This document shows positions 4,291-64,000 of a DNA stretch of 64,000 nucleotides, in pieces. The DNA lies in NCBI GenBank assembly GCA_964016885.1, contig OZ024747.1:38254001-38318000 (forward strand). The letters run 5' to 3'. The notes under the pieces are model-generated. The model saw only the letters and a list, made by a program, of their open reading frames with translations, did not search any database and had not been told where the DNA came from. The position numbers were made by a program, and so were the translations under genes. This stretch comes from Eledone cirrhosa. Lineage: Eukaryota. The stretch's first letter is position 1. The number at the start of each line of letters is the position of its first letter.

Positions 4291-4348
<58 letters not shown>

Positions 4349-4597
4349 GGCGATGAATTAGTTTTGCGAGGTTTTTGATATGAAATCGTCTTGCGAAACA
4401 AATATTGTTATACTTGGGGAGGGTGATATTTGTGTAATAGTATTGACAGAATTAATAACAGAACACACTCACTGTTTGGTTGGTTTTCGCTTCTGTGTCT
4501 TTTATATCGGTTAATTTAATTAATCGGTCCTAAATGTTGCCATTGACTGACCAACGGTCAAAAATACAGATATAGACACAAACACATATATATAGTC

Positions 4598-4641
4598 TAT
4601 CAAAGTTCTTTCGTTGCACATCTGCAACATCGTCAGTGGTG
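4598..4641 (-). ncRNA. Minimal type-I hammerhead ribozyme motif
   Basis: Minus strand: CUGACGA u GUUGCA gaug UGCAAC GAAA gaac UU. Stem I is imperfect. Confidence 0.65.
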
Positions 4642-4874
4642 CTATTATGTTTCCTCCAGTTGCATTGTATGCTTACGCCATCTTTATTTAGTCTGTTAAT
4701 TTATTTATTTATTTGTTTGTTTTTTTCTTCTCTGCGCATGCGTTTGCGTGTATGTATATTGTTTTGTTTGATGTGTGTTCTTGTTTGGGTGACTCTGTAT
4801 TGGTTAATGTATTCTATCTTAGTTTACTAGTGTGTGTTTATATGTGTTTGTTGTTATTGTGCTTGTGTATGTGT

Positions 4875-4879
<5 letters not shown>

Positions 4880-4905
<26 letters not shown>

Positions 4906-6790
4906 TTGATACTTCTCTTAGCTTAGTGTTGTTTGTTTGGGTGTTGTTATTCCATTCATTTTTTTTGTTTAGCCTTGGCCTTCTAAGTTCTATTTCGCTG
5001 GCCTCTCTGATTTGCTTATCTGCTGGGTCATTTCTATGTTTAGAGATTATTCTAACTTCTATGTTGTTTATGTTACCGCTGTGTTGTTGTCTGGCATGTT
5101 CGTATAGTACTGAACCGTTTTTTCGCGCCCTTAGTTCCCCCAGTGTTGGTCTATCCTTTCACCTATGCTACGAGCTGTCTCGCCTATGTATGTTGTTGTC
5201 ATGTTTCTGCAAGTACCCTCTGTACATCTTATGCTATAGACTACGTTTCTAGTTTTACAGTTTCTCCGGGGGTTTACTCTACATATGATACATTTCCTAT
5301 TAGTACAGTGGGTTTTCTTAAAAGGGTAGGTTTTGCTGATCAGGGATATGGTTAGCTAATTTCCCTCCAGGGGTAGCGTCCACAAACATGACACTCTGGT
5401 ATCTCTGGTTGTCGTACCATGAGGTGGCTTTCCCTATCTTATGTCTAGTCCTATCTAAGCTATTCCATGATTTGCTCCTGTATAGTGAGCAAATTCCTTT
5501 CATGTCCAGTTCTATGGGGGTCTTATACTTCTCCGTGGCTCCTTCGTATACTCTGATTCTGTCTCTTTGGTTGTAGCCAGAGAACTGCATGCGGTTGATG
5601 AAGTGTTGGATGTGTATTTCCATTTCTGTTGAGTCACACATGCGGGACACGTTCTTCATCATTCGTACCAAGTCTGCGATCAGAATATTAAACTTAGCAC
5701 TACTGGACATTGCTGAGTTTTTGAGTATCAGGTATTTGGAGGCCATGGGTTTAGCATAGAGTGAGTGGAGAATTTGGGCTCTCTCGTCTATAGTGTTAAT
5801 CCAGATTTCCGTGTCTAATACAGGTAGTCTATTGTTAGGGTGTGTGGAAGGGTAGTCGATAGTTACAGTTATACTCTGGTGTATGGAATTAGCTATCTGC
5901 TGGATGCTCTCCATTGTGCTACGTTCTAAATCAAACTTGTTAGTGCTCTCTTGTGGGGATGTCCTTATTACCATGTTGATGTCGTCTACATAACGGGAGT
6001 ACATGATGAGGTCTATGGAGCTCTCATCAAGGAGATTTTGAGTCTCCTTTCCCACCATACCATAAAAAGGTTGGCAACGTCACCAGCTATGCTGACGCCA
6101 ATGACTGCTCCCTCATTTTGGGTGTAAATCTTCTCGTTGAACTTGAATATGTCCCCCTTTAGGGTAGTTTTGATACTAGCCCCTATTGCATGTGCGACCA
6201 TTTTTCTTACCTGATCATTGTTTTGGGGGGTCCGTATAGCTTTGGTCCACCCAATCCACCTTCCCATGGGAGTCTTTTTTGGCATTGAGGTTATGGTGGG
6301 GCTCTACCTCTTATGGGTCTACGGGGACAGAAACGTCTAAGGTCATGGATGTCTAGGTAGTCAGTGTCGTAGGTAAGTCTAAGTGGGAGGCCCAGTTCGC
6401 CTGGGTCGACGTCGCAGAACTTCACCTCACTCTCAGTGATCATCTCCACACATTTTTCCACAGCAAAATCAATGTTAATGTATGGGTACAGTGATACCAC
6501 ATCCATACTGCCTATTATGCAGTTGGATAGGTTCCTGTTTTTGTTGCACTCACTTCACTGATTCTGCTGAGGAGGTCCTCTGTACTGTCACATACATCTG
6601 GGGACATCTTGATTATGGGGCGTATAAACATTGTGAGGAAGTAGGGGATCCTGTAGTTGCTAGCTATATTTGCTCCGCATACAGGTATTGTTGGTGGTCC
6701 TGTTGTCGGGTTGTCGACTGTCTTGTGGTCTTTGCGGAGCCCATACAAGGGTGGTATGCCATTGTTGAACGCCTGGAAGTTGTTGGCAGT
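4880..6790 (-). pseudogene. PLE reverse transcriptase + GIY-YIG endonuclease, frameshifted
   Basis: LYGLRKDHK, MDVVSLYPYI, YTQNEGAVIG, YSRYVDD, LPVLD, then CxxxxCxxC..VVYSIRC..YIGETARS. Confidence 0.9.
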
Positions 6791-6889
6791 GCGTCTGCGT
6801 CTGCGACAAAAAAATAAACAAATAAATAAATAAATAAACAAACTAAATAAAGATGGCGTAAGCATACAATGCAACGGGAAGAAACATAA

Positions 6890-6935
6890 TATCACCACTG
6901 ACGATGTTGCAGATCTTCAACGAAAGAACTTTGAT
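6890..6935 (+). ncRNA. Minimal type-I hammerhead ribozyme motif (inverted pLTR copy)
   Basis: ctgacga t gttg..caac gaaa gaac tt tgata. Confidence 0.6.
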
Positions 6936-7130
6936 AGACTATATATATATATGTGTTTGTGTCTATATTGTATCTGTATTTTTGACCGTTGGTCAGTGAA
7001 TGGCAACATTGAGGACCGAATAAATTAAATTAACCGATATAAAAGACACAGAAGTGAAAACCAACCAAACAGTGAGTGTGTTCTGTTATTAATTCTGGAA
7101 ATACTATTACACAAATATGACCCTCCCCAA

Positions 7131-7194
<64 letters not shown>

Positions 7195-7198
<4 letters not shown>

Positions 7199-7732
7199 TT
7201 GAATTTCGTATTTCTAAAGAAATATGATATGTTTATAAATAAGCATTTAGAAAGCCATAGCTATAAATAACACACTGGCAACTAACGCCACTATTTTCGA
7301 AATCAACTGGTCCTCGTCGGGACGATCTCTCCCGCTCTTGCAACTGCCGGACTTTGAAAACAGGCGAAACTATATAGTTTTTTCGTCTGTGCAAATGAGT
7401 TGATTAACGTCATTTGCATATGAAGCTGTATACGTTTTCTCAACTTATAATAGAATAGAATTAAAATTTAGCTTCGAACATAGATGAAAGTCCGGCACTT
7501 GCAAGAGCGGGAGAGATCGTCCTGACGAGGACAAGTTGAGATCGAAATGCATCGACCAGTGTCTCCCTTGCTTCTGCTGCGCACCGCTTGGTGGCGTTAG
7601 CTGTCAATGTGTTATTCATAGCTATGGGTTTCTAAATGTTTATTTATAAACATACCGTATTTCTTTAGAAATACGAAATTCAAATACATATTTGTATACA
7701 GCTATGTTCGAAGCTAAACTCTAATTCTATTA
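7195..7732. mobile_element. Non-coding HHR-bearing element (retrozyme-like), inverted dimer, family R1
   Basis: 7195-7355 is largely the reverse complement of 7485-7688. Related to 28272-28934. Flanked by (TA)n. Confidence 0.75.
7519..7556 (+). ncRNA. Type-I hammerhead ribozyme
   Basis: gtc CTGACGA gga..tc GAA atgcat C gac: stem I gtc/gac, palindromic stem III atgcat. Confidence 0.75.
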
Positions 7733-7830
7733 TATATATATATATATACAGATTAAATATGCTGTCATATCAAATAAATAATGCACATACAAGTTCTGAA
7801 AAGGAATATTAAGTGCTTCTTTAATATAAT

Positions 7831-11310: not shown

Positions 11311-11360
11311 AAAATAATAGTAGCTATAATAACAACAACAACAATAATAATGATAATAAT

Positions 11361-14072
11361 AGTTTCCTTTATTGGCCACAAGGCCCTAAATATAGGGGAC
11401 AATACAATAAACGGAGACAGTGGGGGTTTTACATAAAAATCGAGTAAACATTAGGAAAACAATAACAATTACCAAGAAAAAGTACAACAATCAAAATTCC
11501 CCAATAGGGGGGATAATCACCCAGTGTTGATTCAAGTACCGCACCAATCCTGAACCACCCGACGCTTCGAGAGAACCCGGTAAGGGCACCCTTCTCCTCA
11601 AATTCACCAGACTACAGGCACATGGTTATAGTAGGTCCACTCACATACCATTCTCGCCACATTTACCCACCTTTCAGCAATTGTACTGGGAGGCAGACTT
11701 CTCTTTCCACACTCACCTCCCGTTCCAAGTGAAATTTGAAAAGGTTGAGGAGGGATTGGCCAAAGAGAAAGGTGTCTCTCTTCAGTCCTTTCAACCTGGT
11801 CCACCATACAACCTCTTTGGCTACTGCCACCACAGAGGAAAATTGCCTGTCCTTCCTGGCCAAAAGAAGGCGGCGGATCGAGCTTCACTATGGACTCGGC
11901 CGATAGCCGGATCCGTACTACACAAGTCAGTAATGCACGAACTCTGGACGAGTGCGTGCAGATGGTTTTGTCGCTCTGCGCGCATCTCAGGCAGGTCCGT
12001 CTGACAGCACTTCCGTGCCTGTAGAGTTTATCTCGAACCGGCAGTGCCCCCCCCCCCCCCCGGTAGCACTGCCAAGCAAGGGATTTTTGGAGGCTATTCA
12101 TAGTCCACAGCTTGAAAGAGTCCTCCAGAGAGACTGGCTAATTCGACTTCGTCGAGGCCCAAAGCCTCTCCGAGTGCCTCGTCGCACTTGCCCACCACTA
12201 ATCCTCTATAGAACACAAGAGTGGAAGTTCCACTGACCGCATTGCCCGCCTCGTAGAGTGCCTGGCAACATTGAAGATGCCAGTCACCCAGTCGCGGTCT
12301 CTTCTCGACCCAGGACTGCAGGTTAGTCAAAGAGACGTGCTGCGGAAAGGCCCGTCTGACAAACGGTGACCACACCTGTTCACTGTTTAAGCAGAATATC
12401 TGGACATGCCGCAGCCTCAGCGCATATCTGCGCATCATTAGCCGCAACAGGCCCAACGCTTCGCGTAGAGGGTGCTGGCAGAAGGTGAACCGCCTCACTA
12501 ACGGAACCCGTCCTCTCCAGAGGAATTTGAAGAGGAGCCATTGAAACCTGGTGAGGCGCGGACGTGTACAAGGCACGATGGTGAGGTGGAATGAATGACG
12601 GACGCGATGCACGCATTCGTTACCTCCACAGGACCTTTCAGTGATAGCTTCCTTGCATTTCTGGATGTGACTGGCTACCCTGCCCGTTGTCTCGTCCCAA
12701 TTCTTATTCATCTGGTGGTCTGGCCCGAATCAAAAACCCTGAGAAATTTTACCGGTTCGTCCTTTCAGCGCTGAATGATGCTGTTGGACGACATGGACTT
12801 GCCCCTCCAGGTGCCGAGTTGCAAGCCCACCGACTTTTCAGGGTTATGGTTCGCTCCCATCAATCTTTCATATTCCTCCAATAAGTTGCCGACCACCTCG
12901 ATTTCTGAGGTGTCAGACACCATCACGGTGATGTCGTCCTCATAAGCTAACACAAACTTTCCGCGTCCCAGTTCGGTCTGGATGCGCTGCAACAACTCCA
13001 ACTTCTGCAGTAAAGGCTCGAGAGTCAAAACGTACAGAAGGGATAAGAGAGTGCACTCACGACGGACTGATCGGGAGACCTGAAACGGTTCCGAGAGGTG
13101 GCCATTAACATTGACCACCGAGCAGATTCCACAGTGCATTGCAGCGATACAGATTTTGAAGAGGGGGCCGAAGTCAGCTGTCTCCAGGTATCGATGGTCA
13201 GCCCTATCGAATAACTTCGATTGATCTAAATTGATCAGAGCCCCACCGAAGCCAGATTTACACCCTACCCACTCTATAATGTATCGCATGAGGTGGAGGT
13301 TGTCGTGTAAAGATCTGGTCGGGTTGCGCAAGTTTGGGCCTCCCCAACCAAATCTTCGATGACAAGCTGTAACCTCTTCACCAACACCTTGGTCAAAATC
13401 TTAAAATCTGTGTTAAGCAAAGTTATGGGCCTGAAATTGTCTAATGTGCCCCTCTTTTTCTCGTCTTTCCTTATCAGCGTCACCACTCCCCCGCTCACAG
13501 AACTGGGAATCCTCCCGTTCTGCTGCCAGTGGCAGTAGAGCGATTCGAGGCGATCGGGGAACAAGTCTGGCATGTTTGCGTAAAGCTCGTAGGGCAGACC
13601 ATCCACACCAGGTGACTTGCGCCTCATGCAGCCGACAAGGGAATCCTGAATATCGGCTGAAGTCATCGGTCTCTCGCAGCGCCCAGAGTCGGCCGTTGAG
13701 AGTTGCGGCAAGCCATCGAGGTAGGGACTGAAGTTTGCCACTGTCTCTGACCCGCCACTTCCCCCGAACAACCTAGCAAAATGCTGGCGAAAAGCCTCCC
13801 ACATCCACCTGGGATCGCTAAATTCGTGTCCGTCTCTGTCCGTCAAAGACCGAATCGTAGTTTTATTACCACGCTGCGCCTCTGCCAAGCGGGCCCATCG
13901 AACAGCTTTGGTTCCCTCGTTTCTCAGAGCACGCGTCTTAGCTCTGACAATGCAACCTTCGTGTTTCGCATTGAAGAAATGATCTAATGCCATTCTCACC
14001 GCTTGCACGTCAGTTGCGATGCCACTACCAATAGCCTCGTCTAACGTATCTACCAATTCCCCCTCCTTTCAA
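11361..14072 (-). mobile_element. L1/Tx1-like LINE copy B, 5'-truncated; ORF2 pseudogene (RT + C-terminal Cys/His motif)
   Basis: KSPGVDGLP, NFRPITLLNTDFKIL, LINLDQSKLFDR, LAYEDDI, CLRC..TI. Ends in an (ATT)n-type tail. Confidence 0.92.
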
Positions 14073-14145
14073 TAAATGATTCATGAGAGATAAATAAAAA
14101 GACTTACGGGATTGAACAAAACGACGTCCGATCACATCAATAACC

Positions 14146-14147
14146 AA

Positions 14148-14193
<46 letters not shown>

Positions 14194-14265
14194 GCTACTA
14201 CTACTACTGCTATTACTAATACTACTACTACTTCTACTACTACTACTACTACTAATAATAATAAT
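14146..14265. repeat. (TAC)n/(TAA)n microsatellite between LINE copies B and C
   Basis: Direct reading. Confidence 0.95.
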
Positions 14266-14520
14266 GATTTCTTTATTAACCACAAGGGTTTATATAAAGT
14301 AGACATTAAGTAGCGTGCAAGACAATACAGGACGGTACATATGGACATTTCTGCGTGTAAAAAAACAAAAACGGAGAATGTAACAAAAAAAAAATAACAA
14401 TGAAAAATTCACCAATAGGGGGGAGACTTCGGAGGTACATTTGTGGAGAAAGCCCATTAAAAGGACACAGTGATGCTGACCTCCAAGGCAAGTGCCCTCT
14501 CCCAGTTTTCCACCTTTAAT

Positions 14521-17446
14521 TTACAGACACATACTCAGAGTAGGCCCATTCACTCGGGCCATTCTTGCTTCTCTCACCCATCTTTCAACAAAATGCTGGG
14601 AAGAGAGCACTTCCCTCTCTACTCTGATTTTCCTTTTCAAATGAAATTTGAAAAAGTCAATCAGGGCATCACCGAAGAGGTAAGTGCTCGTCTTCAGCCC
14701 TTTCAAACGTGTCCACCATACTATCTCTTTCGCCATGGCCCCCAGACAGATAAAAACTTCCTGCCCGTCCCGGCTAAAGGAAGAGGGCGGGGCAATCCTC
14801 ACGATGGACTCAGCTGATAGCCGGACCCGTCCTACACGCGACAGCAGGTGTTCGACATAAACCCACAAGTCAGCAATTCTCGGACACTGGACGAGTGCGT
14901 GCAGGACGGTTTCGTCTCCCTGCGCGTAACTCGGACATGCGCGGCTGACGGCACCTCCATGCCTGTAGAGTTAATCCTGAACTGGCATGTCTCCTCGGTA
15001 GCACTGCAAGGCCAGGGATTTCTGGAAGTTGTCCATAGGCCCCGGCCCGAAAGTTCTTCCGAAGAGATTGGCTAGTTGATTTTCGTCGACGCCTAGAGTT
15101 TCCTCAAGTACATCGTCGCTCTTCCCCTCCACTAATCCTCTATAGAACGCCGAGGTGGAGTTTCCACCGTTCACATTGCCCGATTGGTCGAGGGCTGCGA
15201 GCGCCTGAAGACATTCCAGTCTCCAAGCACTCTCTCTCGGTCTTCGCTTAACCCAGGACTGCAGCTCCGTCAAGGAAACGAGCTGGAGAAATACGTGTCT
15301 AGCAAACGGCGACCACACCTGATCACCGTCGAGGAAGAGGTGGAGATGTCGTAGCCTGAGCGCGTGTCTGCGCATCAACAGCCACGGTATGCCCAGCCCT
15401 CCACGTAGCGGGTGTTGACAACAGATGTACTTCCTAACCTTCGGAGCGCGTCCCTTCCACATAAAGCGAAAGAGCAAACGCTCTAGCGCAGTCAGGCAGG
15501 GCTTAGGACAAGGTACGACGGTCAGGCGGTAGCAGATGACAGACGTGATGTACGCGTTAGTCACCTCCGCTCGACCATTCAGGGATAGCTTCCTCTCCGC
15601 CCATTTCTGGGTGAGAGAAGCCACCCTGCTCGTCACCTCGTCACAGTTTTTGTCCGTCTGGAGGTCTGGACCGAACCAGACCTCTAGTAATTTAACCGGT
15701 CCGTCCGCCCAGCGCCTGACTACGCTGTTGGACGGCATGGACCTGCTTCTCCAGGTGCCGAGCTGCAGGCCCACTAACTTTTCCTGGTTGATCATTGCTC
15801 CTGTCACCGCTTCGTATTCTCTTAGTGTAGTGCCGAACGCCTCGATGTGTTTGGCGTTCGACACCACTACGGTGACATAGTCTGCATATGCTGACACGCA
15901 TCTTCCGCATCCTAGTTCGCGCATGACCCCCCTCAACGTCTCCAGTTTGTGCAGTAATGGCTCGAGAGTCAATACGTACAAGAGGGACGAAAGGGGACAT
16001 CCTTGGCCGACCGAGCCCATGATGTTGAACGGTTCCGAAAGGTGACCGTTCACTCTCACCACAGAGAAGATGTCGCTGTGCAGGACTGCCGCTAGGTAAC
16101 GATGGTCGACCCTTTCGAAAGCTTTCGACTGATCTAAATTGATCAAGGACCCTCCCGTGCCAGGTTACCTAGCTATCCTTTCTACGATGTATCGCATGAG
16201 GTAGAGGTTGTCGTGGATGGATCTGTCTGGAATGGCGCATGTCTGCGCCTCTCCCACTAGACCATCAACGACAATCGCCAACCGCTTTGCTAGCACCTTG
16301 GCCAAAATCTTGAACTCTGTGTTTTGCAGTGTTATGGGCCTGAAATTATCTGTTATCCACCTTGTTCGGATCCTTTCTCAGCAGCGCCACCGCTCCTCGG
16401 CTCACAGAGTTGGGAATACTTCCGTTCTGTTGCCAGTTTCAGTAGAGGTTCGCCAAGAGGCCTCCGTACAAGTCTGGCATTTGTACATAAAGTTCATAGG
16501 GCAGATCATCCAAACCAGGCGATTTACCCCTTGTGCAGCCAGTCATTGCCTCACGTACTTCAGCGGCTGTTATCGGCTTTTCGCAACACTCCGCCTCAGT
16601 GGCCGAGAGCCGTGGCAGTCCGTCGTGGTAGACACTAATGTTCATCCCTCGATCCGGCCCGCCACTGCCCCCGAACATTGCGCGCTGGTAAGGACGCGTT
16701 TAGCTTCCAGTAGCTGGGTCCTCGTCTATGAAGCCTATCTAAGTCAAGCACACAGATCACGAATTTGTGGGCCGTGTAGCTTACTATCTTGAATTGTGGA
16801 CAGCCTAGGCTAGACCTATCTATTTCCTTACAAAATACTCTATCTAGATATGATCTGGATGACCCTTTTCGATTTGTCCAAGTCCACATTGCCACATTCG
16901 GGAAATCCAATCAGTACCTGTCAGACAGTTCTAACGCCTGAGCAGATTGGTGAGGCTCTTGCACCCTCCTCCCCTATCCGCTAATCCCACACAGTCCCAG
17001 CGTGCATCTAAGATCCCGTTCCAGTCGCCCACTAACAATAAAGAGCGGGACGTTCCTAAAAATGTCTCCAGACGCCGGAAGAAATTAGGCCGCCCTGCTC
17101 CTGTCGGGGCATAGACGGCAACTAGCCTGAAAGCTTGCCCTTCTCCGCTGGTCACGTCCAGCACCACCAACTTACCTTCTGGGTCCAGGAAGATGGCCCG
17201 TATGGCGAGATCCAAACCTCTCCGAAAAAGCAAAGCAACTCCTTCCCCCGATCTCGGACGGCTGGGAGATGCGTACACATCGTAGCTGCCGAAGATCGGT
17301 GCGAAGGCCCGTGCTTTGGAGATTCTGGTCTCGCTGATGGCCACTACATCTATGTTTAGTGACCTGAGGTCGTTGAGCAGTTGGCCCTGCTTTCATGACG
17401 ACCCCAAGCCACGCGCATTTATGCTGCCTATTCTGAGTGAGGTCAT
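14521..17446 (-). pseudogene. LINE ORF2 (APE endonuclease + RT + C-terminal zinc motif), frameshifted
   Basis: SINARGL, AISET, VAVYAP, GDWN, YLDRVF, KSPGLDDLP, LDQSKAFERVDH, QGCPLS, AYADYV. Confidence 0.92.
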
Positions 17447-17480
17447 GTTGAAATGGAGTGGAAAAGATGGGAAAGACCAC

Positions 17481-19609
17481 TTACATTACTTCTCGCAGAG
17501 GAAGGATGGTTTCACCATCCCTTTTCACTTGATCGTCTGGTGAAGGGTCCGTTGAATCGCCCCTTCGGCTGGTCGTCGGCTCCTCTCTGAGTATATCCGA
17601 ATATACCCTCCGGTTGAGTGTCCCTCCTAGGTCTCTGAAATCACCAACTGCGTTGGGGAATTTCGTTTTAATGTTTGTGTATTGTTTCTGTGCTATTTTT
17701 ACCAGTCTTATGTTCGTTGGTGGTGTTTTGATTGGTGCTGGTATTATGTAGTCGTGCTGTGAAATGTCTGTGTGTTCAATTATGTAAGTCATTAATTTCT
17801 TGTTGTGTGTATTTATTGCTGTGCATTTGTTTTTCTGGGGGTGGGGTGAGGTTATGCTATTTTCTTGTCATTATTTCTGGGTGTGTGTGCTTTGTTGTGT
17901 TTGCGATGTTGGTGCTTGTGGTGGTGGTGTTGAAGGTGTTGTTGTTGTTGGCGGTGGTGTTGCTGCCGGTGGTGATGGTGGTGCTAGTGTGGGTGGTGAT
18001 GGTGTTGGTGGTGTTGCTGCTGTAAATCTTTTTGCAGTAGACTTTACCCTTTTTTCGTTTCTTTCCTCCCTTTTCGAAGGCGACGATGCGCTGCTTCTGC
18101 GTTTGTGCCTTCTTGCGACCTTTTGCCATCCCTCTCCCACCTCATACTCCATGTCTAATTCTGTGAGGTCGGGGAGGGGTACCAGCTCCACTATTTCACT
18201 TGTTGTTGTTGGTGATGTTTGCAGTGGAGTCTCTGTTGCAGCTGCAGTTGGTATTGCTGTTGTTGTTGTTAATACTTCCACTGATGCTGCTGTTCTTGAT
18301 TTCTGTGGCGTGGGTATGGGTGCCACGGACCTATCCTTCCTGGTTGCCGCTTGTCCTGTTGCTGGTAGCAGTGGAGCCGGTTTCGGAAGGAGGGGGGTTT
18401 TCTCCTTTCTGCAGAAGGCCCTGAGGTGAGACTTCGATCCACAGCGAAAGCATTTCGGGCGTTTGCCCTCAACACTGATGGGCAGTTGAGTGCCGTCTAT
18501 CACATCCGGGATAGCATCGATGCACTCGTGGTTGGTTTGGATTAAAATCTCAATGGAGGTGCCGACCCAATCTTCTCGTACTTTTTTCTGTACTTGCAGT
18601 ACTGTTGTTTTGTCCTCGATTCCGACGAGGACAGACGCGGCCAGCCAAGAGGGGGCCATCACGGGGTGGGGGGGCGTGGATCAGTTTGACCCTCACAATT
18701 TTTTGTCCGCAGTAGGAGGGCACCAACACCATTTCCTCACTCCTTAGGGTCACTAAGGATTGAGACTTTGCCTCCTGGGGTGTGGCAAAAAGCACGTCCA
18801 CGGTGGCATATTTCTTGCCTCGGGTCATATGCGTTTTCCGCTGCCACACATACTCTAAGTCTTTTTGTATTTGAGCCTCTGTGGCCCTTTCAACCCTACG
18901 GGATTTTGTGCTTACTGTACAGTACGTGACCGTACAGTGCTGTTGGGTTTCGAAACATTTTTCGGCTGCCTTGCAGATTGCTCTGTGTCCGGTTTTCGTC
19001 ACAATCCTCTTTGCTTCCTGTAATTCCTCATTTATGAGAGAGAATGGTTTCCAGGTTTTTTGCGATACCTGCAAACGAGATTGGTTTTTCTTTGTTGTTG
19101 TTGTTGTTGTTGTCGTTGTTAGAGCAGCTGTTACTTTTGTTGTTGCTGCTGGTACTACGACTGCCGCCGCCGCTGTTGCTGTGGTTGTTGTTGTTGTTGC
19201 TGCTGCTGCTGCTGTTGTTGTTGCTGTTGCTGCTAATGCTGTTGTTGTTTATGCTGCTGCTGATACTGTTGCGGCTGCTACTGTTGTTTTCCTTGTCACT
19301 GTTGCTGCTGCTTTTGTTATTACGGCTGCTTCTGCTATTATTCATGATGTCAGACAAATGAAATGGGTTTTCTTATTTACCGCACACCTTTACCGCACAC
19401 CTTTTCCGTCGTCGTCGTTCCACGTTTTGCACGTGATTTTGGACACTATTTTTCTTTACTGGCGTCGCTTGCGAAAGAAAAGGGAGGGAGAGAGACACAT
19501 TTAGAGAAGGGAGAGAAAGAGACAATCTTCTCTCTGGTGTAGTGACGATTGAGGAAGAAGAAGACGGAATGAGTGGGAGTGACTTGTGAAAATTCTTTTT
19601 TGTAGCCAT
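17481..19609 (-). pseudogene. LINE ORF1 with CCHC zinc knuckle and Asn/Ser- and Thr/Pro-rich tracts
   Basis: ISVEGKRPKCFRCGSKSHLRAFC (CX2CX4HX4C). Lies upstream of ORF2. Confidence 0.85.
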
Positions 19610-20124
19610 CTTTTTTTTTGGTTTAAAAGAAATATTAGGCACAGAATCCCAATAAGCGGTTATTTAACCACGAAGGGCCAAATAACGGGCAGAAAGACCC
19701 CTCTCACGAGGAGTAGGGTGTTTTTGTCTACAATTTGGTTAAAGTTTTAAACAATTTACAATTGTTATAGCGGTTAAAATTTACAATACCTTACAGAGCC
19801 GAGCCTCCGTCAACCATGGCATTTCAATAATAATAATAATAATGATTTCATTTATTGGCCAAACGGGCCGACATATAGGGGACAATACAAAAGAATGGGA
19901 CAGTGGTGTTTTACAGAAAAATCGCGTATACAATATGAATCACAATAACAAAGTAACAATAACAAAGTAACAATAAAGTAACAATAAAATTACAACAAGA
20001 AAAAAATTCCCCAATAGGGGGTATGGCCACCTAGAGTTCGCTCAGGTACCTCACCAGTCCTGAACGACGAGACGCTTCGAGAGCACCCTGGAAGGGCACC
20101 CCTCTCCTCATAAAATTTACCTAC

Positions 20125-23100
20125 CTACAGCCGCATGACTAGAGTAGGCCTACTCACACGAGCCATTCTCGCCACACTCACCCACCTTTCAGCATATGTA
20201 CTGGGGGGGGGGGGGGGGGGCAGCACTTCTCTCTCCACCCTCACCTTCCTTTCCAAGTGAAACTTGAAAAAGTTGATGATGGATTGGCTGAAGAGAAAAG
20301 TGTCTGTCTTCAGTCCTTTCAACCTCGTCCACCATACATCCTCTTTCGCTACTGCCACCAGACAGAGGAAAATTGCCTGCCCTACCTGGTCAAAAGAAGG
20401 CGGCGGGTTGATCTTCACTATGGACTCGGCCGATAGCCGGTCCGTTCTACACGCGACAATAGCTGTTCAACATAACTCCACAAGTCAGTAATGCACGGAC
20501 ACTGGACAAGTGCGTGCATAACGGTTTCGTCGCTCTGCGCGCATCTCGGGCAGGTCCGTCTGACAGCACTTCCGTGCCTGTAGAGTTTATCTCGAACCGG
20601 CAGTGCCCCCCGGTAGCACTGCCAAGCGAGGGATTTTTGGAAATTATCCATCGTCCCCGGCTCGAAAGTCCTCCGGTACAGACTGGTTAGTTCGACTTCG
20701 TTGACTCCCAGAGCCTCTCCGAGTGCGTCCTCGCACTTGCCCACATAAAATCCTCTATAGAACTCGAGACTGGAAGTTTCACTGACCGCATTGCCCGCCT
20801 GGTAGAGGGCAGTGAGTGCCTGGGAACATTCCAGATGCCAGTCACCCAGTCCCGGTCTCTTCTTGACCCAGGACTGCAGCTCAGTCAAAGAAATGAGCTG
20901 TGGAAAGGCCCGTCTGACAAACGGCGACCACACCTGTTCACTGTTTAGGCAGAATATCTGGAGATGCTGCAGCCTCAGCGCGTGCCTGCGCATCATTAGC
21001 CACGGCATGCCCCGCCCTCCACGTAGAGGGTGCTGGAAGCAGATGGAGCGCCTCACCGGCGGAACCTGACCCCTCCACAAGATGGCGAGGCGCGAACGGG
21101 GCTAAGGGACGACAGTCAGACGGTAGTAGATGACGGACGCGATTCTTATCCACCTGGAGGTGTGGCCCGAACCAAATCCCTAGCAACTTTACCGGTCCGT
21201 CCGTCCAGCGCCTAACGACGCTGTTGGACGGCATGGACTTGCCTCTCCAGGTGCCGAGTTGCGAGCCCACTAACTTTTCCGGGTTAAGTTTTGCTCCCGT
21301 CAACCTTTCATATTCTTCCAATAAGTTGCCGACCACCTCGATTTCTGAGGTGTCCGACACCATCACGGTGATGTCGTCCGCATAAGCCGACGCAGCCTTT
21401 CCGCGTCCCGGTTCGAGCGGAATACCCTGCAACAGCTCCAGGTTCCACAGTAAAGGCTCGAGAGTCAATACGTACAGAAGGGAGGAGAGAGTGCACACTT
21501 GCCGGACCGATCGGGTGACCTGAAACGGTTCCGAGAGGTGGCCATTAATGTTGACCATTGAGCAGGTGCCGCTGTGCATTGCAGCGATCCAGCTTCTGAA
21601 GACGGGGCCGAAGCCAGCCGCCTTGAGGACAGCCTCCAGGAACCGATGTTCAACCCTATCGAATGCTTTCGATTGATCTAAATTGATCAGAGCCCCACCG
21701 AAGCCAAGTTTACACCCTACCCTCTCTATGATGTACCGCATTAGGAGGAGGTTGTCGTGTATGGACCTGGTTGGGATTGCGCAAATTTGCGCCTCCCCAA
21801 CCAAATCCCCGATGACAAGCGCCAACCTCTTCGCTAACACCCTGGCCAAAATCTTAAACTCTGTGTTGAGCAGAATTATGGGCCTGAAATTGTCCAATGT
21901 GTCCCTCTTGTTCTCGTCTTTCTTTATCAGCGTCACTACGCACCGGCTCACATAACTGGAAATACTCCCCTCTTGCTGCCAGTTGCAGTAGAGGGCTTCG
22001 AGGAGATTGGAGAACAAGTCTGGCATATTTACGTAAAGCTCGTAGAGCAGACCATCCAAACCGGGGGACTTGCGCCTCATGCAGCCGACAAGGGCATCCT
22101 GAATCTCGGCTGAAGTAATTGGCCTTTCGCAGCGCCCAGCGTCAGCCGTCGAGAGTTGCGACAAGCCATCGAGGTAAGGACAGAAGTCCGTCACCATCTC
22201 TGACTTGCCACTTACCCCGAACAACCGAGCAAAATGTTGGCGAAAGGCCTCACACATCCTCTTGGAATCGCTCAGCTAGTGCCCGTCTCGGTCTGTCAAC
22301 GACCGAATCGTGGTTTTATTACCACTCTGCGCCTCTGCCACGCGGGCCCATCGAACAGCTTTAGTTCTCTCGTTTCTCAGAGCACGCGCCTTAGCTCTGA
22401 CAATGCAACCTTCGTGTTTCGCATTGAAGAAATGGTTTAATGCCATTCTCGCCGCTAGCACGTCAGTTGCAATGCCACTACCAATAGCCTCGTCTAACTT
22501 ATCTACCAACTCCCCTTCCTTTCTATTTTTATCTAACGCTACTTCTTTGCGACATTACTCTAATCTCCCTTTTGAGAGCCCCCCACCATCTATTGTTGAC
22601 GACTACCCCTGTCAACTTTTTCTTCACTAAATTGTTGACCTGGTCCCTGTAAGCCCTACGGGCCGGAAATGACATATTTAGCTTCCAGTAACCATATCCT
22701 AACCTACGCGTCTTATCTAGGTCGACCATACAGATCACAAAATTGTGATCTGAATAGGTGACCGTTTCAAAACGTGGACAGCTTACACTATTTCTGTCTA
22801 TTTTCCTAATGAATATCCTGTCTATATACGATGTAGTTGACCCTATGCGGTTAGCCCAGGTCCACACTGGCGCATTAGGGAAATCTAGTCGGTACCTGTC
22901 AGACAATTGGAACTGGCTGATCAGGTTCTTGAGGCTTTTGCACCCCCCGCTCCTATCGGATACTCCCACACAGTCCCAGCGTGCGTCTAAGATGCCGTTC
23001 CAGTCCCCCGCTAACAGTAAAGGGCGAGACGTACCCAGAAAGGCTTCCATGCGTCTAAAGAAGTCCGGCCGTCCTGACCCAGTAGGAGCATAGACGGCCA

Positions 23101-23424
23101 CCAGTCTAAAGGCAACACCTTCGTTATTGTTCACGTCCAGGACCACCAACTTCCCGTCCGGGTCCCGGAAGATCGACCTTACCTCGAGATCCAGGCCTTT
23201 CCTAAACAGCACTGCCACCCCGCCTCCCATTCCCGGCCGGCTAGCAGATGCAAAGATCTGATAGTCGACGAAATGGGGGCTTGTGCGCGCGTGTCGGAAA
23301 TCCTGGTCTCGCTGACTGCAATTACATCCATTTCTATAGACCTGAGGTCGTTGAGAAGGTGACCCTGCTTCCAGGACGATCCCAGGCCTCGAACATTTAA
23401 ACATTCTACTCTTAATACGGCCAT
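20125..23424 (-). pseudogene. LINE ORF2 (APE + RT + CPRC..H..C), frameshifted
   Basis: MAVLRVECLNVRGL, VSET, GDWN, YIDRIF, YSDH, KSPGLDGL, LDQSKAFDRVEH, AYADDI, CPRC..ETVMHALVQC. Confidence 0.93.
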
Positions 23425-23455
23425 GCTGGCAGGTTAAACAGAGAGAGAGGAAGGT

Positions 23456-27149: not shown

Positions 27150-28235
27150 CACTATTAACCATATCTCATCAATTTTAATATCGTCCTCTTTACCATTATT
27201 ACATTCATTACCACTGTTATCCTTATTAACTTTATTTTTATTGCTGTTAATATTATATTGCATCCTTTATCATGTCCCCCACCACTAAACATATCACCAT
27301 GTATCCATCACTCTCAACGACACCAACACATACTGCATACCCATGAGGCACACAGACCATCAGCATCATACACTTCCCACAATTGATTTCATCACCTCTT
27401 TTTTATCACCAATTTCACAACTGTTATTTAACATCACATGTATTTCCAGCACATTTTCTATACTATAAAACATTTTTTTCTACCACCATTTAATCCCACA
27501 CGAACGCATCTAGATGCACTGCTAAGCACGTACATTCACACGTGTTTTTTGTAGTGCAAATCCTCTTTAAAGATGTTTAAACAGCTTACAAATAAGCCCC
27601 ACCCCCAATCTAGCATAACCTACCTCCGTTATATCTCCCCTCCTTCCTTGCCACTCATTCTTCCGTGACAAACTGATGACCAACAGAAAATCCCTCACCC
27701 ACCCATAGTACAGCATCGCACCTAAGTCCCATCACGAATAGCCCTACCACATCCACACCACACACAGCGCCTCCGCCTCGTCACGTAGACGCCGAAATGT
27801 CTATGATAAACCACAACACCACACCCCTGCAACTCATATCAACCATCACTCCCCACCTCCACCTCGTCATTAAGTTCATTCCCCCACCTATTACATGCTT
27901 AAAAAAGATTCCTCATAGCAAATCCACCAATCAAAACAACATAAATTGACCACTATATGAAAGCGAAATGTTAGACATTTCTATGCTTTATATGTATATT
28001 CTGTCATTACAAAAGCAGAGGTCCGACGAGCTTTTGATTCCAGAGTTGAGCCAGATCGATACAGACCGAACCTTGAGCTGATCAATAGCGAAACGCGTGT
28101 CACCAATCAATAAACGTAATAAAGACATAACAATTCGTCCTTGTATTATTATATTTACACTCTGTTTAGCTCTACACCCGTTATAGACGTGAATATAAAC
28201 ATCGAGTGCTCATCTGGGTGAACCTACAGTACGTT
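27150..28235 (+). mobile_element. Highly degenerate PLE-like 3' region with HHR and AATAAA
   Basis: C/A-rich strand, HHR motif at 28020-28104 followed by AATAAA, ends at (TA)n. No clear ORF. Confidence 0.45.
28020..28104 (+). ncRNA. Hammerhead-like motif with long stem II and U4C core variant
   Basis: ggt CCGACGA gct tttgat..atcaa t agc GAAAC gcgt GTC acc. Confidence 0.6.
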
Positions 28236-28379
28236 ATAATCTCTGGATATATATATATATATATATATATATGTATAGAAATTTCGAATTTCTAAAGAAA
28301 CATGGTTTTAGGAAGCCGTAGCTATCCAAACACCGGGGATAACGCCCTCTGGTGGTATCCAGCAGAAGCAAGGGGGACA

Positions 28380-28423
28380 ACCGTCTACGCATTTCAGGCT
28401 TGACTGGCCTTCTCCAGGACGGT
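28380..28423 (-). ncRNA. Type-I hammerhead ribozyme (A6G variant)
   Basis: Minus strand: accgtc CTGGAGA aggc cagtcaa gcct GAA atgcgt A gacggt. Confidence 0.7.
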
Positions 28424-28739
28424 CCCTCCCACCGCTTGCGACTGCTGGACTTGAAAACAGTCGAGAATATATAGTTTTCTCGCAAATGAGGTGATTAATC
28501 TCATTTGCATATGAAGCTGCATAAGTTGGCTCAACTTATAATAGAATACAAATAGAAATATGAAATATCTATACATATTTTTATAAAGCTCTGTTTGAAG
28601 CGAAATCCTATTTCTTTTCTATTATAAGTTGAGCCAACTTATGCAGCTTCATATGCAAATGAGATTAATCACCTCATTTACGAGAAAACTATATATTCTC
28701 GACTGTTTTCAAGTCCAGCAGAAGCAAGCGATGGGAGGG

Positions 28740-28783
28740 ACCGTCCTGAAGAAGGCCAGTCAAGCCTGAAATGAATAGACGGT
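28740..28783 (+). ncRNA. Type-I hammerhead ribozyme
   Basis: accgtc CTGAAGA aggc cagtcaa gcct GAA atgaat A gacggt; 6-bp stem I, 4-bp stem II. Confidence 0.85.
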
Positions 28784-28933
28784 TGTCCCTCTTGCTTCTA
28801 CTGGACACCACCAGAGGGCGTTAGCCCCGGTGTTTGCTTAGCTACGGCTTCATAAAACCGTGTTTCTTTGGAAATACGAAATTTCTATACATATTTGTAT
28901 AATGCTATGCTTGAAGCGAAATCCTATTTCTAT

Positions 28934-28964
<31 letters not shown>

Positions 28965-40693: not shown

Positions 40694-42150
40694 TATTTAT
40701 CATTTTTACAATTTATTTATAGCGAAATTCGCATTTTGTAGCATTGTATACATGCCTACATGCCCACATATTAATATATGCGTATTTATAAACACATTGG
40801 TGCAGTCTCAGTTACCCACTCTTTAATTATACAGATATAACTTCATTATAAGTTTCAGCTGGTAGCGTTATTTTTAATAGGGCCTACATAGGGTTAACCG
40901 CCAATAGTTTCAAGCAGCGTCTTTACATGCATACCCATTCTTTTCGTTACCCTCTAAGAAGGAATATGACGTCACTTTCAGCTTATATTTGGAGTCTAAA
41001 AGACAACCACACCCAATATAAGTTACACTGGGAGATCCTAGCTAGTGCTAGATCGTATAACGGAAATAAAAGACCATGTAACCTCTGCGCTGCTGAGGCC
41101 CTGGAAATACTCTACGCCACAGACCACATCTTAAAAAAAGAATCTGAGGCAATTTCGGCTTGTAAACATAAATTGCACAAAACTTTCCTGTATTACAGCC
41201 CCACGTTATACCCTAACGGATAGGACGATCTATACGTGGATATTTTACGTCTTGATGTGGGAGCTAAGTATATGTTTTGTTTATATCTTTACTTATTTGC
41301 ATAGGTAAGTATATATTACCCGTATGTTTTGTGAAGGTACGTATACCTTCTCGTACGTATATTTTATTGTTATGGCGTATAATTTTATATATTCTGGTAT
41401 ATATGGTTTGGCTATGTGTATACGGGAGTTTTGCGTCTGTGTGAGTATGTAGGTTCGTAAGTTTGGTGGGTGTGTGTATATGTGTACTTCTTGTTTTAGT
41501 TGACTTACGTCTCCGAACATTCGTGTATTTATATGTAGGTATGCGTGTGCGCTTGTTAAATACGTATTTATTTACTTATATACGTTTATATAATTATTTA
41601 TTTATTTGTACACAAGCATACACACACACACATATTTATATGTGCGTGGTTTTGTATACCCATGGTAAGGTTTTGCGTATGCTTGTGTATGTACGTATCT
41701 GTTTGCGTGTATGTATTTATTTGTTTCTATTACTTCTGTATTGTATTTATTTACTTTGTTCTTAACTCTGTAGCGGAGATTCATTTGGTCTCCTAGTTAG
41801 AATTTTAGTCTACGATTTCTGCTATACCATTTACGTGGTTTTGTCTTTGCGTGCTATTGTTCTCCACGCTCCACATATGACTTATTATCTTCGTTTTTTC
41901 GTTCATTGCCAGAGAACGTCTCTATGCACCACCTAAGAGAACATTAGTCTACGACCTCTTTTATACCATAAACGTGGTTTTGTCTTTGCGCGTAATTGTT
42001 TTTCACCGCTCCTATTAATGACGTATTATTCGTTTTTTCCCGTTCTTTGCCAGCGAACGTTACCACGAACCAAAGTATCGTCTTCCTGTCTTCCTCCGGT
42101 TGCAACGTTTTTTGAAATATCCAGTTCTGCGTTTACAGATTGACTTTGTT

Positions 42151-42201
42151 AGTTTCAGAAGATCCCGTTAAGGGTGAAAGCAGCGATTCTTTGCTTAAAC
42201 T
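42151..42201 (+). ncRNA. Hammerhead-like motif (U4A variant); duplicated at 63401-63451 on the minus strand
   Basis: agttt CAGAAGA t ccc gttaa ggg t GAA agca..tgct T aaact. Confidence 0.55.
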
Positions 42202-42315
42202 TTAAACTGTTATTTTAATAAATATTTGCTCTACGGTTCTTATATATTTATATATTTGATATATATTCTCCTTATCAAGCCCTCTTTGGATTTTAGTCTT
42301 CAATTTTATTATTAT

Positions 42316-43157: not shown

Positions 43158-43299
<142 letters not shown>

Positions 43300-43512
43300 C
43301 GTTTCTGAATTTGTTTAGCAAGATTCTTTATCTGAAATCGTGTGTTGAAACCGATATTGTTATACTTTGGGAGGGTCATGTTGCCAATAAGAAACACACG
43401 CACCAGTTGCTTTCACTTCAATTTAATTTATTAAATATTTATAAATTTACAAATTTATAAATTTCTGGTTGGTTGGTTGGTTCCACAACCAGATATTTGT
43501 TTATATATATAT

Positions 43513-43557
43513 AGTCATAGTTCTTTCGTCACACACTCTGTGACCTCTTCAGTGACT
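43513..43557 (-). ncRNA. Type-I hammerhead ribozyme
   Basis: Reverse complement of 44012-44056. Confidence 0.85.
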
Positions 43558-44011
43558 GGGGATTTCTTTCTTCGTTTCTGTGCCTTTCCTTTCTTCTATC
43601 CTACGCCATTTTGAAAGACGCAATGTTTAGGCAAATTACAGAGGCAGTAAGCATAAAAGAATTAAAACCAAAATTAAATAGAAAATATGAGTGGAACAGC
43701 AACATCACAACTTACAATTAAGGACAAAATGAAAACACACACACACATCGAACAAACAACTTACAATTGAAAACACACACAAAATGAAAACACACACACA
43801 CATAGAACAAACAACCAACCAACAATAAATAAATAAATAAACAAACAAATAAAAAAAAAAAAAATATAAATAGAAAAATAGAAAAATGAACACAAACACA
43901 CACAGACACCCGGATGTGGCGCATGCGCAAACTGAGCACGCAACCCACACACAAACAAAATGGCGTAGGATAGAAGAAAGGAAAGGCACAGAAACGAAGA
44001 AAGAAATCCCC

Positions 44012-44056
44012 AGTCACTGAAGAGGTCACAGAGTGTGTGACGAAAGAACTATGACT
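44012..44056 (+). ncRNA. Type-I hammerhead ribozyme
   Basis: agtca CTGAAGA g gtcaca gagtg tgtgac GAAA gaac TA tgact; perfect stem I and stem II. Confidence 0.85.
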
Positions 44057-44207
44057 ATATATATATAAACAACTATCTGGTTGTGGAACCAACCAACCAA
44101 CCAGAAATTTATAAATTTGTAAATTTATAAATATTTAATAAATTAAATTGAAGTGAAAGCAACTGGTGCGTGTGTTTCTTATTGGCAACATGACCCTCCC
44201 AAAGTAT

Positions 44208-44250
<43 letters not shown>

Positions 44251-52909: not shown

Positions 52910-53764
52910 ATTATTGTCTATTATAACTCTTAATATACAAGTTTATTTTAAATTTCTAGCCCATATGAGCTCGATAAAATGAGCAGGAAAATAACCTACT
53001 TGAACAAATATAATCAAGTAAAATCCCTTGAGGGAGATACCATACTCCAATGAGTGAAACCATTTAAATAATTGAAGTATAATGTGTTGCAGCAGTAAGA
53101 TATAATATAAGTAATTTAGTTAGATACACGCATGGTAATTATTTTTTCTATCTAGAAGGGATGGAATGGAAATAACTCCCCATCGGAATCTATGGGGCTA
53201 TCGAAAGTAATACAATTTTTAGATTTCGTGTTAGTCATCTTCACTGCCTTGAAAATAAAACTGAAAACAACGAGAGAAAATTAATCCTTTTAATTATCAA
53301 GAACGGTTTCTATCTAAAAGACAAAATGTGAAATTATGACATTCAGTCCTTTCCAAATTGAACCAGTTAAATTCATTCTTAATTGCTCTTTTTTTATGAA
53401 TTGCCAAGCGGGGTAGTTTGGAATACGAATCGGAGAACAGAAGTGACTGTTTATTGAATACATATTAGCTACACACTGTAAATGTATATTTCGAAAAGAA
53501 AATAGTATTTACTTAAGTTGAACTCGGGGAGATTTCGTAAATATATATATATATATTGTTTCTGAATTTGTTTAGCAAGATTCTTTATCTGAAATCGTGT
53601 GTTGAAACCGATATTGTTACACTTTGGGAGGGTCATGTTGCCAATAAGAAACACACGCACCAGTTGCTTTCACTTCAATTTATTATAATAAATTTATAAA
53701 TTTAGGAATTTATAAATTTATGGTTGGTTGGTTGGTTCCACAACCAGATAGTTGTTTATATATT

Positions 53765-53808
53765 GTCAAAGTTCTTTCGTCACACATTTTGTGATCTCTT
53801 CAGTGACT
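53765..53808 (-). ncRNA. Type-I hammerhead ribozyme (pLTR copy)
   Basis: Minus strand: gtca CTGAAGA g atcaca aaatg tgtgac GAAA gaac TT tgac. Confidence 0.7.
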
Positions 53809-53891
53809 GGGGACTCTTTTTTTTTTTTTTGTGCCTCTCCTTTGTTCTGTCCTACGCCATTTTGTTTCTGTGTGTGTGTTATGTGTGTTGT

Positions 53892-56142: not shown

Positions 56143-56784
56143 ACACACATATATCCAAGGGAGGTAACCCCCGCTTGGCGGTGAATTCCAATTTGAGACA
56201 AAGGAATGAATTCCTTTAGACAAACTGAATTAAGCACTCAACCAGAAGTTATCAAACAAACATAAACAATTAATCAATCAATAGAATCGTCTAATTAAAT
56301 TAATCAGTTAATCGTTAATTCTAGGAGTAAAATACAAATTTTAGTACAGCATTAACGAAGCTTTAGTTCGCGGCCAAGCTAACGAAAGCAAATTCGGAAT
56401 GTAGCTTAATCACTCGGATGGGAGAAAGTACCCCAGAGTAATAACAATACGTTTAGACAGCTTAGCAAATCAAATATAGCGATCGGCAGTCCAGCCGCAT
56501 CACCAGAGCAACGAAAATACAGGACTCAGGAAAACTTTTTAGACTGACCTGGACAAAACGGTGAGACAGAATGCAAAATATATAATGCATATGGTATAGC
56601 ACACGATATACATCACATAGAGCACACAACATCAGCGCTAGGTTTCTGCAAATTCAAGATCGACAAATTCCGCTTGCAGGGGTTTGCAAGTTCATGGTTT
56701 TTGACGACAGAACAAAGGATTTCCTTCTTCAGCAAGTATTGTGTTCTTTTGCCTCTGCGATCTCAGTAAACAGGTGGGGTAGTT

Positions 56785-56828
56785 GGCCTTGATAAGCTTC
56801 AACCAAAGCGAAACAAGTCTTGTCGGCT
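56785..56828 (+). ncRNA. Type-I hammerhead, U3-A8 compensatory core
   Basis: ggcc TTGATAA gctt caacca aagc GAA acaag t cttgt C ggct. Confidence 0.75.
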
Positions 56829-57100
56829 TATCTCCCCTGTTTGCTGAGATCAAAGTGAGTGAATTTGTCACTACTTTAAAACAATAGCTTACGGTCTTCA
56901 AGATGCTTTTAATTAAGCATAAAGTGTATTGCAAAATACATTATATATACATCCATATATATATTGCTATTTCAGAGCCCCAATTCTAATTTTTAATTTC
57001 TGCCTGACCAACAACCGCTCTGCATAATCAGCTCCTGATTATTTACTAGATTTCTATAAGAATATAACATCAATGATCTCAGTAAACAGGTGGGGTAGTT

Positions 57101-57144
57101 GGCCTTGATAAGCTTCAACCAAAGCGAAACAAGTCTTGTCGGCT
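57101..57144 (+). ncRNA. Type-I hammerhead, U3-A8 compensatory core (copy 2)
   Basis: Identical to 56785-56828. Confidence 0.75.
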
Positions 57145-57292
57145 TATCTCCCCTGTTTGCTGAGATCAAAGTGAGTGAATTTCTCACTACTTTAAAACAA
57201 TAGCTTACGGTCTTCAAAATGCTTTTAATTAAGTATAATGTGTATTGCAAAATACATTATATATACATCCATATATATATATATAAGAAAGT

Positions 57293-57561: not shown

Positions 57562-57651
57562 ATATATATCTTTATATATATATATATATATGATATTATT
57601 ATAATAAAATGACAGGAGGCTGGACTTGTGTAAATCCTTGAAAGGTTTATT

Positions 57652-60383: not shown

Positions 60384-60430
<47 letters not shown>

Positions 60431-60433
<3 letters not shown>

Positions 60434-61822: not shown

Positions 61823-64000
<2,178 letters not shown>

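What the first reader, a model, noticed from the sequence alone, without database searches (positions are those of the whole stretch)
28272..28934. Candidate cephalopod retrozyme: ~316-nt HHR monomer with terminal redundancy, integrated as an inverted dimer
Seen: no ORF; one type-I HHR per arm (28740-28783 canonical); the plus arm starts and ends with the same ~58 nt (gaagcgaaatcc at 28597 and 28913, period 316); a second monomer is inverted; flanks are (TA)n. Known: metazoan non-LTR retrozymes are roughly 150-400-nt HHR repeats that yield circular RNAs and are thought to be mobilised by PLEs. Inference: a non-autonomous circular-RNA retroelement copied more than once around the circle by the PLE RTs in this window, whose insertions show the same inverted architecture and TA target.
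Basis: partly seen in the sequence, partly recalled or inferred. Interest (0 to 1): 0.82.

Follow-up and report, generated by a model that had tools for sequence, protein, structure and literature searches.

The report
Ribozyme repeat spread by Penelope enzymes
This is one old, damaged copy of a 322-base ribozyme-carrying repeat found over a thousand times in this genome; its insertions carry the two-ended signature known from Penelope retrotransposons, and they were likely copied from a small circular RNA.

Summary
The locus is one of about 1,500 or more dispersed copies of a non-coding unit with a type-I hammerhead (HHR). The family monomer is 322 nt; 316 reflects a 6-nt deletion seen only in this locus's two arms. 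Copies have variable 5' ends and two fixed 3' ends about 30-40 nt apart, followed mostly by (TA)n. Head-to-head inverted arms pair one long end with one short end in 43 of 46 pairs, the known Penelope-like element (PLE) 'tail' signature. Arms and tandem passes within a locus share rare variants 5-7 times more often than different loci, and ends do not pile up at the HHR cut. So each insertion came from one monomer sequence read through the ribozyme site: likely a circle, but an uncut linear tandem is not excluded. No coding parent was found; the window's PLEs have other terminal repeats. This copy has one damaged HHR per strand and cannot excise a circle itself. A younger relative at 56759-57280 forms arrays of up to 26 units. 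No RNA data were available. Verdict: a new non-LTR-retrozyme-like, non-autonomous PLE family.

The parts
28247..28271 (.). Left (TA)n flank, next to the short ('B') end of the inverted arm
28272..28560 (-). Inverted arm, about 290 nt, ending at the upstream 3' end (site B); lacks the tail; carries the locus-specific 6-nt deletion
28379..28424 (-). Type-I HHR of the inverted arm, core A6 to G and altered stem III hexamer; likely impaired
28553..28560 (.). Head-to-head junction; about 8 nt fit both arms (microhomology)
   Evidence: read from the sequence
28555..28934 (+). Plus arm, 380 nt = about 1.2 units, ending at the downstream 3' end (site A)
28555..28618 (+). Partial second pass (terminal redundancy), 57 of 64 nt identical to 28871-28934
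28679..28680 (+). Site of the 6-nt deletion shared by both arms (family 322 nt, here 316)
28713..28806 (+). Predicted rod that extends HHR stem I
28739..28784 (+). Type-I HHR: 7-bp stem I, CUGAAGA, 4-bp stem II, GAAA, minimal stem III, cut after A28777; stem III palindrome broken in this copy
28886..28934 (+). Site B (about 28886-28901), 30-40 nt tail and site A (about 28931-28934): inferred RT start sites
28934..28964 (.). Right (TA)n flank
7198..7740 (.). Copy of an older sister family (67-80% identical), same inverted long-end/short-end layout between (TA)n
56759..57280 (+). Copy of a young, distantly related 316-nt HHR family (U3-A8 core variant), partial tandem

Best explanation
The locus is an old insertion of a 322-nt, non-coding, hammerhead-bearing repeat with the insertion pattern of Penelope-like elements, likely mobilised by a PLE enzyme in trans and likely copied from a circular RNA monomer. 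Shown: high copy number, two fixed 3' ends, variable 5' ends, long-end/short-end inverted pairs, TA-rich flanks, read-through of the HHR site, and one monomer variant per locus. Inferred steps: rare loci with two tandem HHRs are transcribed; the HHRs cut as a dimer through the palindromic stem III; the monomer is ligated to a circle; a PLE GIY-YIG endonuclease cuts both strands of TA-rich DNA; each DNA end primes reverse transcription inside the RNA, one at site A and one at site B; copying can run past one lap and then stalls more often; the two cDNAs join head to head by microhomology.
For: Copy number: 1,567 exact 19-mer matches, 2,741 candidates. 3' ends: 116 of 137 arms in 82 position-sampled loci end at site A (73) or B (43). 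Asymmetry: 43 A+B, 2 A+A, 1 B+B among 46 classable pairs, p 2e-10 (one locus counted twice; 28 further pairs had a non-A/B end). This matches the one-sided 30-40 bp PLE tail (PMC8557442, PMC3846280) and two internal RT starts on both strands (PMC11167929). Coding PLEs here show the same two-end, TA-flanked layout. One template per locus: rare variants shared at 2.8/kb between arms (27 of 61 loci) and 4.0/kb between tandem passes (17 of 55 loci) against 0.57/kb between loci. Four loci carry one rare variant in both arms and both passes. No clear pass-specific allele was seen. HHR site read through: 91 of 137 arms cross it, 4 twice; 1 of 147 5' ends and 2 of 201 3' ends lie near it; no excess of gaps there. 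Stop rate rises from 0.38 to 1.26 per 100 nt after one unit length. Only 7 direct HHR pairs at unit spacing against 424 single matches, so long linear templates are scarce. Stem II and stem I show compensatory changes between subfamilies.
Against: No RNA evidence for a circle or for cleavage. Homogeneous linear tandem transcripts would also give shared variants, and the young relative does have long genomic arrays. The stop rate rises gradually, not in a step. In the one PLE tested in vitro, uncut RNA was the main substrate and HHR cleavage was dispensable (PMC11167929). No partner PLE with matching 3' sequence was found (z 0.5-1.6). Folding stability is as high for the antisense strand, so it does not single out a circle. 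Unshared variants far outnumber shared ones (787 vs 38; 383 vs 24), and some gene conversion cannot be excluded.
Confidence: 0.6

Rival explanations
1. Same non-autonomous PLE passenger, but the template is an uncut linear transcript of a tandem locus; the HHR is incidental or only trims RNA, and no circle is needed.
For: Arms are under two units long (longest 635 nt). Dimeric loci exist. The young relative has arrays of up to 26 units, with a six-unit block duplicated at DNA level. Uncut RNA was the main PLE substrate in vitro (PMC11167929).
Against: Rare variants are shared across passes in many lineages and none is clearly pass-specific, so tandems must have been rebuilt from monomers repeatedly. 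Multi-HHR loci are rare for this family (7 vs 424). Linear copying alone shortens lineages by 5' truncation (inference).
Confidence: 0.3
2. The copies are 5'-truncated terminal-repeat (pLTR) debris of a coding PLE that was not sampled.
For: The insertion anatomy is the same as that of truncated PLEs, and most genomic minimal HHRs are attributed to truncated PLEs (PMC4209133). Only three coding PLE families were examined.
Against: In the segment maps of the fetched loci, arms that pass unit position 1 continue into the unit's own 3' end, invert, or stop at a flank; none runs into an ORF. No collinear PLE ORF beside 155 unit loci or 30 loci with the related HHR motif. No unit match in 60 coding-PLE loci.
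Confidence: 0.07
3. A DNA-level foldback or MITE-like palindrome, or a satellite, with a chance HHR-like motif.
For: The locus is palindromic and sits in TA repeats; Rfam has no hammerhead hit here.
Against: Arms are asymmetric and variably truncated; 35 of 82 position-sampled loci had no inverted pair detected. The full core is intact in 103 of 160 segments and the stems covary.
Confidence: 0.03

Closest known systems
Metazoan non-LTR retrozymes (PMC7229834; bioRxiv 10.64898/2026.07.22.740005)
   Same: Non-coding, 150-450 nt unit, GC under 50% (41-44%), type-I HHR with short palindromic helix III, predicted structured circle, coexistence with PLEs.
   Different: Mostly dispersed copies of under two units and inverted pairs, not head-to-tail arrays; fixed PLE-type 3' ends. 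Circular RNA not shown here. The young relative at 56759-57280 fits the tandem definition better.
EN+ Penelope-like elements (Neptune, Hydra, Poseidon clades; PMC8557442, PMC3846280, PMC11167929)
   Same: Partial tandem plus inverted 5'-truncated copy, one-sided 30-40 bp tail, two 3' ends downstream of the HHR, TA-rich targets.
   Different: No ORF. No sequence match to the three coding PLE families examined in this genome.
Non-autonomous Chlamys elements such as MRC1 (PMC8557442, passage)
   Same: Non-coding PLE passengers that form pLTRs and head-to-tail insertions.
   Different: Those resemble their autonomous partners at the 3' end, and most Chlamys lack canonical HHRs; here the HHR is present and the partner is unmatched.

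Membership tests
Non-LTR retrozyme | Non-coding unit of about 150-450 nt, GC under 50% | tested here: met
   322 nt, GC 0.41-0.44, no ORF
Non-LTR retrozyme | Type-I HHR in each unit | tested here: met
   Core intact in 103 of 160 segments, core plus palindrome in 87; stem covariation; no Rfam hit
Non-LTR retrozyme | Head-to-tail repeats with at least two HHR-bearing units | tested here: inconclusive
   Not met at this locus (one HHR per strand). In the family, 7 direct pairs against 424 single matches, two of the 7 with a partial first HHR. Met by the related family
Non-LTR retrozyme | Expressed, self-cleaved and circularised RNA | not testable with these tools
   No RNA holder listed; only indirect genomic evidence
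Non-autonomous PLE | Partial tandem plus inverted 5'-truncated arm | tested here: met
   Inverted pair in 69 of 138 loci
Non-autonomous PLE | 30-40 bp tail at one end only | tested here: met
   43 of 46 classable pairs are A+B
Non-autonomous PLE | AT-rich or microsatellite target | tested here: met
   TA run after 78 of 115 A ends and 33 of 59 B ends; on the free 5' side in 25 of 64 against 210 of 5000 background
Non-autonomous PLE | 3' similarity to an autonomous PLE family | tested here: inconclusive
   No match to the three families examined; other PLE families of the genome were not sampled systematically
Autonomous PLE | RT plus GIY-YIG ORF between pLTRs | tested here: not met
   No ORF in or collinear with the unit

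The most novel reading that the evidence does not exclude
These families are a fossil record of rolling-circle, target-primed reverse transcription of ribozyme circles by a dimeric PLE enzyme. Both ends of one DNA break prime on the same circle at two fixed sites. The telomerase-related RT stutters on the first 2-3 template bases and so writes new (CT)n and (CA)n microsatellites at the element ends.
Probability: 0.35. Interest if true: 0.75.

Novelty: new member of a known kind. Interest (0 to 1): 0.52.

Why it matters
That PLEs mobilise animal retrozymes, and do so from circles, is a hypothesis resting on shared HHRs, co-occurrence and pLTR similarity (PMC7229834, PMC4209133, bioRxiv 10.64898/2026.07.22.740005). 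This family adds insertion-level evidence: the PLE tail asymmetry, TA targeting and one monomer variant per locus, in a non-coding unit. A minimal ~320-nt substrate with mapped start sites, a young relative that may still be active, and long open PLE frames in the same genome make the circle model and the origin of PLE inverted ends directly testable in vitro.

Tried and rejected
Rfam scan: no hammerhead at the locus, only miRNA-family noise on TA repeats and the palindrome. Pfam: no hit for 5 of 7 frames tested, including all four PLE fragments; PLE labels therefore rest on motifs I read in longer frames, and the clade names Neptune-like and Hydra-like were not tested by a tree. The idea that the template's 5' end is the upstream HHR cut (suggested) was rejected: 8 of 59 B arms and 4 of 115 A arms exceed that bound, and 5' ends do not pile up there. 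RNAalifold on 40 mixed copies gave no usable structure; pairs were counted on a named structure instead. Search for a coding parent: none in 60 PLE loci, 84 endonuclease-downstream regions or 30 related-HHR loci. Sequencing runs: no RNA holder listed; the three runs laid were contigs of one sample and say nothing on expression. Target-site duplications were not scored because of the TA flanks. Earlier findings: three look-ups, nothing shown. Literature searches for a description of this family or of retrozyme insertion ends found none in the held library; supplements and repeat libraries such as Repbase or Dfam were not seen and may list it.

Full report
Observation. The anatomy is real. The arms 28262-28555 and 28608-28901 are 93% complementary and a direct repeat has period 316 (57 of 64 nt identical). 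Each arm has a type-I hammerhead and the flanks are (TA)n. No coding frame is present. Rfam has no hammerhead hit here, so the ribozyme call rests on a descriptor and on covariation.

The family. The unit gave 2,741 candidates in the 3.0-Gb genome, 40 scored. A 3' 19-mer has 1,567 exact matches with 0 for the control; an HHR 14-mer has 424 with 3 for the control. I fetched 155 loci and dropped 17 duplicates, leaving 138. Of these, 82 come from the first 100 19-mer matches on contig C1 and are unbiased for length apart from needing the motif. The period is 320-324 in 26 of 29 other top loci; two were not measurable and one missed the second motif. The window's 316 comes from a 6-nt deletion found in 2 of 120 segments, both arms of this locus; three other loci have different deletions nearby. 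Top copies differ from the column-wise commonest letter by about 5%, and segments within a locus differ by 8.2%, so the family is old.

Ribozyme. Across 160 segments the core is intact in 103, the palindromic stem III hexamer in 126, and both in 87. In 40 copies from this and sister subfamilies, stem II pairs in 137 of 158 cells with double changes at 3 of 4 pairs, and stem I in 249 of 280 with double changes at 2 of 7 pairs. These reflect few events, and the sister loci were chosen by a core pattern. A short palindromic helix III is described as needing a dimer to cut (PMC4209133, parts 1-2 of 4 read; PMC7229834, parts 2-4 of 6 read). Both HHRs of this locus are damaged, and each strand has only one, so the locus cannot excise a monomer. 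A read-through transcript would fold into a ~290-bp hairpin (inference). Monomers fold far more stably than shuffles as circles (z -7.0 for this copy), but so do their antisense strands (z -7.7).

Insertion pattern. Of 137 arms in the position-sampled set, 73 end at site A (unit 311-322), 43 at site B (275-300) and 21 elsewhere. Inverted head-to-head pairs occur in 69 of 138 loci. Among 46 pairs with both ends classable, 43 are A+B, 2 A+A and 1 B+B (p 2e-10); 28 more pairs had another end. Among the 77 HHR matches on C1, I count 11 inverted pairs, all head to head, and 1 direct pair. A TA run follows 78 of 115 A ends and 33 of 59 B ends, and lies on the free 5' side of 25 of 64 single-arm loci against 4% background. 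This is the PLE pattern: partial tandem, inverted truncated copy and a one-sided 30-40 bp tail (PMC8557442 and PMC3846280, passages). In vitro a PLE cut and extended both strands and started at two internal RNA sites that bound the tail (PMC11167929, parts 1-2 of 4 read). Coding PLE copies in this genome show the same two ends and TA flanks, for example at 4345-7135.

Template. Rare variants (under 5%) are shared between inverted arms at 38 per 13,506 sites (27 of 61 loci) and between tandem passes at 24 per 6,058 (17 of 55 loci), against 0.57 per kb between loci (Poisson p below 1e-12). Unshared variants are far more numerous (787 and 383), as expected from later decay. Agreement at common polymorphic columns is 0.74 and 0.80 against 0.54. 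Only two columns differed by pass, one at a ragged TA edge and one with 10 pairs. The HHR site is read through: 87 arms cross it once and 4 twice, 1 of 147 5' ends and 2 of 201 3' ends lie near it, and it shows no excess of gaps. A cut linear monomer is therefore not the usual template. The stop rate is 71 per 18,858 nt up to one unit and 35 per 2,773 nt beyond, which fits an RT meeting its own product after one lap, though the rise is gradual. Only 7 direct HHR pairs at unit spacing were found by exact pattern. A circle explains all this most simply; a homogeneous uncut linear tandem remains possible. Copying of circles into more-than-unit cDNA was proposed in PMC4209133 and PMC7229834 but not shown there.

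Partner. Two abundant coding PLE families were sampled with window fragments, and a third, related to the first, was seen in the window and in flanks. The first has a C-terminal GIY-YIG domain and its own, different HHR. The second gave no HHR in my scan. The unit matched none of 60 loci. In 84 regions downstream of endonuclease frames, the three unit hits were separate insertions behind TA runs. 3'-end alignments gave z 0.5-1.6 against PLEs, 15.5 against the sister copy and 2.8 against the young family; sister against young family gave 6.2. Of 30 loci with a related HHR motif, 27 match the unit or its sister and none has a collinear ORF. The enzyme is thus inferred from its footprint, not identified.

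Relatives in the window. 7198-7740 is an older sister copy with the same layout. 56759-57280 belongs to a young 316-nt family (top copies 97-99% identical, 1,021 candidates). It has arrays of up to 26 units, inverted arms, locus-wide shared variants and a U3-A8 core, a covariation already reported in PLE HHRs (PMC4209133).

End-matched microsatellites. (CT)n follows 11 A ends and 2 B ends, all of which finish in a T/C-rich run; (CA)n follows 7 B ends and no A end (Fisher p 5e-4). In 0 of 9 A-end (CT)n loci with a scored other side does the tract continue on the same strand, and in three loci (L027, L046, L142) the two ends carry outward-facing tracts. This suggests the tracts arose at the element ends, by RT stutter or later slippage. 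Priming by microhomology on existing tracts is not excluded without empty sites. One search found no paper on this for PLEs.

Comparison and verdict. It works like a non-LTR retrozyme and meets the structural tests for a non-autonomous PLE. Retrozyme membership lacks RNA evidence, and the tandem criterion is met only rarely. The general link is published (bioRxiv 10.64898/2026.07.22.740005, parts 1-3 of 5 read). An octopus repeat annotation paper mentions no ribozymes in its main text (PMC13282606, term search only); the host group here was not tested. I rate it a new member of a known kind, interest 0.52, for the insertion-level evidence and the testable substrate.

Noticed in passing
window 56759-57280; L266 863-9080: Young 316-nt HHR family with a U3-A8 core, arrays of up to 26 units and a six-unit block duplicated within the longest array; the best candidate here for an expressed circle.
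   Followed up: partly
window 7198-7740: Older sister-family copy with the same inverted layout, abutting a PLE through a (TA)n run; the HHR of its inverted arm is partly deleted.
   Followed up: partly
window 4345-7135 (-), 53538-55273 (+), 43298-44215: Remnants of coding PLEs with a C-terminal GIY-YIG domain (Neptune-like by my reading), with long-end/short-end inverted arms; canonical HHRs at 43552 (-) and 44017 (+). Relatives elsewhere keep open frames of 800 or more codons.
   Followed up: partly
window 40852-42310 and 62765-64000: Second PLE family (Hydra-like by my reading) with a long 3' region and no canonical HHR in my scan; the same 3' end is followed by (CT)n here and by (TA)n in L200 and L208.
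   Followed up: partly
L026, L068, L124, L154 at unit position 285/286: Another repeat, ending in a GC-rich hairpin and CTAGT-like motif (Helitron-like, recalled), recurs at the same site inside the unit.
   Followed up: no
L038 937-1104: One inverted arm ends exactly at the HHR cut position, as if primed from the 3' end of a cleaved RNA; single case.
   Followed up: no
window 57258-57588 and 58212-58828: Other palindromic repeats between TA-rich flanks; 57258-57588 recurs at 60429-60667 and in several loci; MITE-like or PLE-derived, not examined.
   Followed up: no
window 11342-23455: Several decayed LINE copies with RT and AP endonuclease frames (Pfam hits).
   Followed up: no
window 27990-28240: Repeat just left of the finding with an HHR-like but non-canonical motif; it also matches L247.
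   Followed up: no
G000:C1:143348612-143796094: Seven HHR matches on the same strand at about 58-60 kb spacing (or roughly double), suggesting a large tandem segmental duplication.
   Followed up: no
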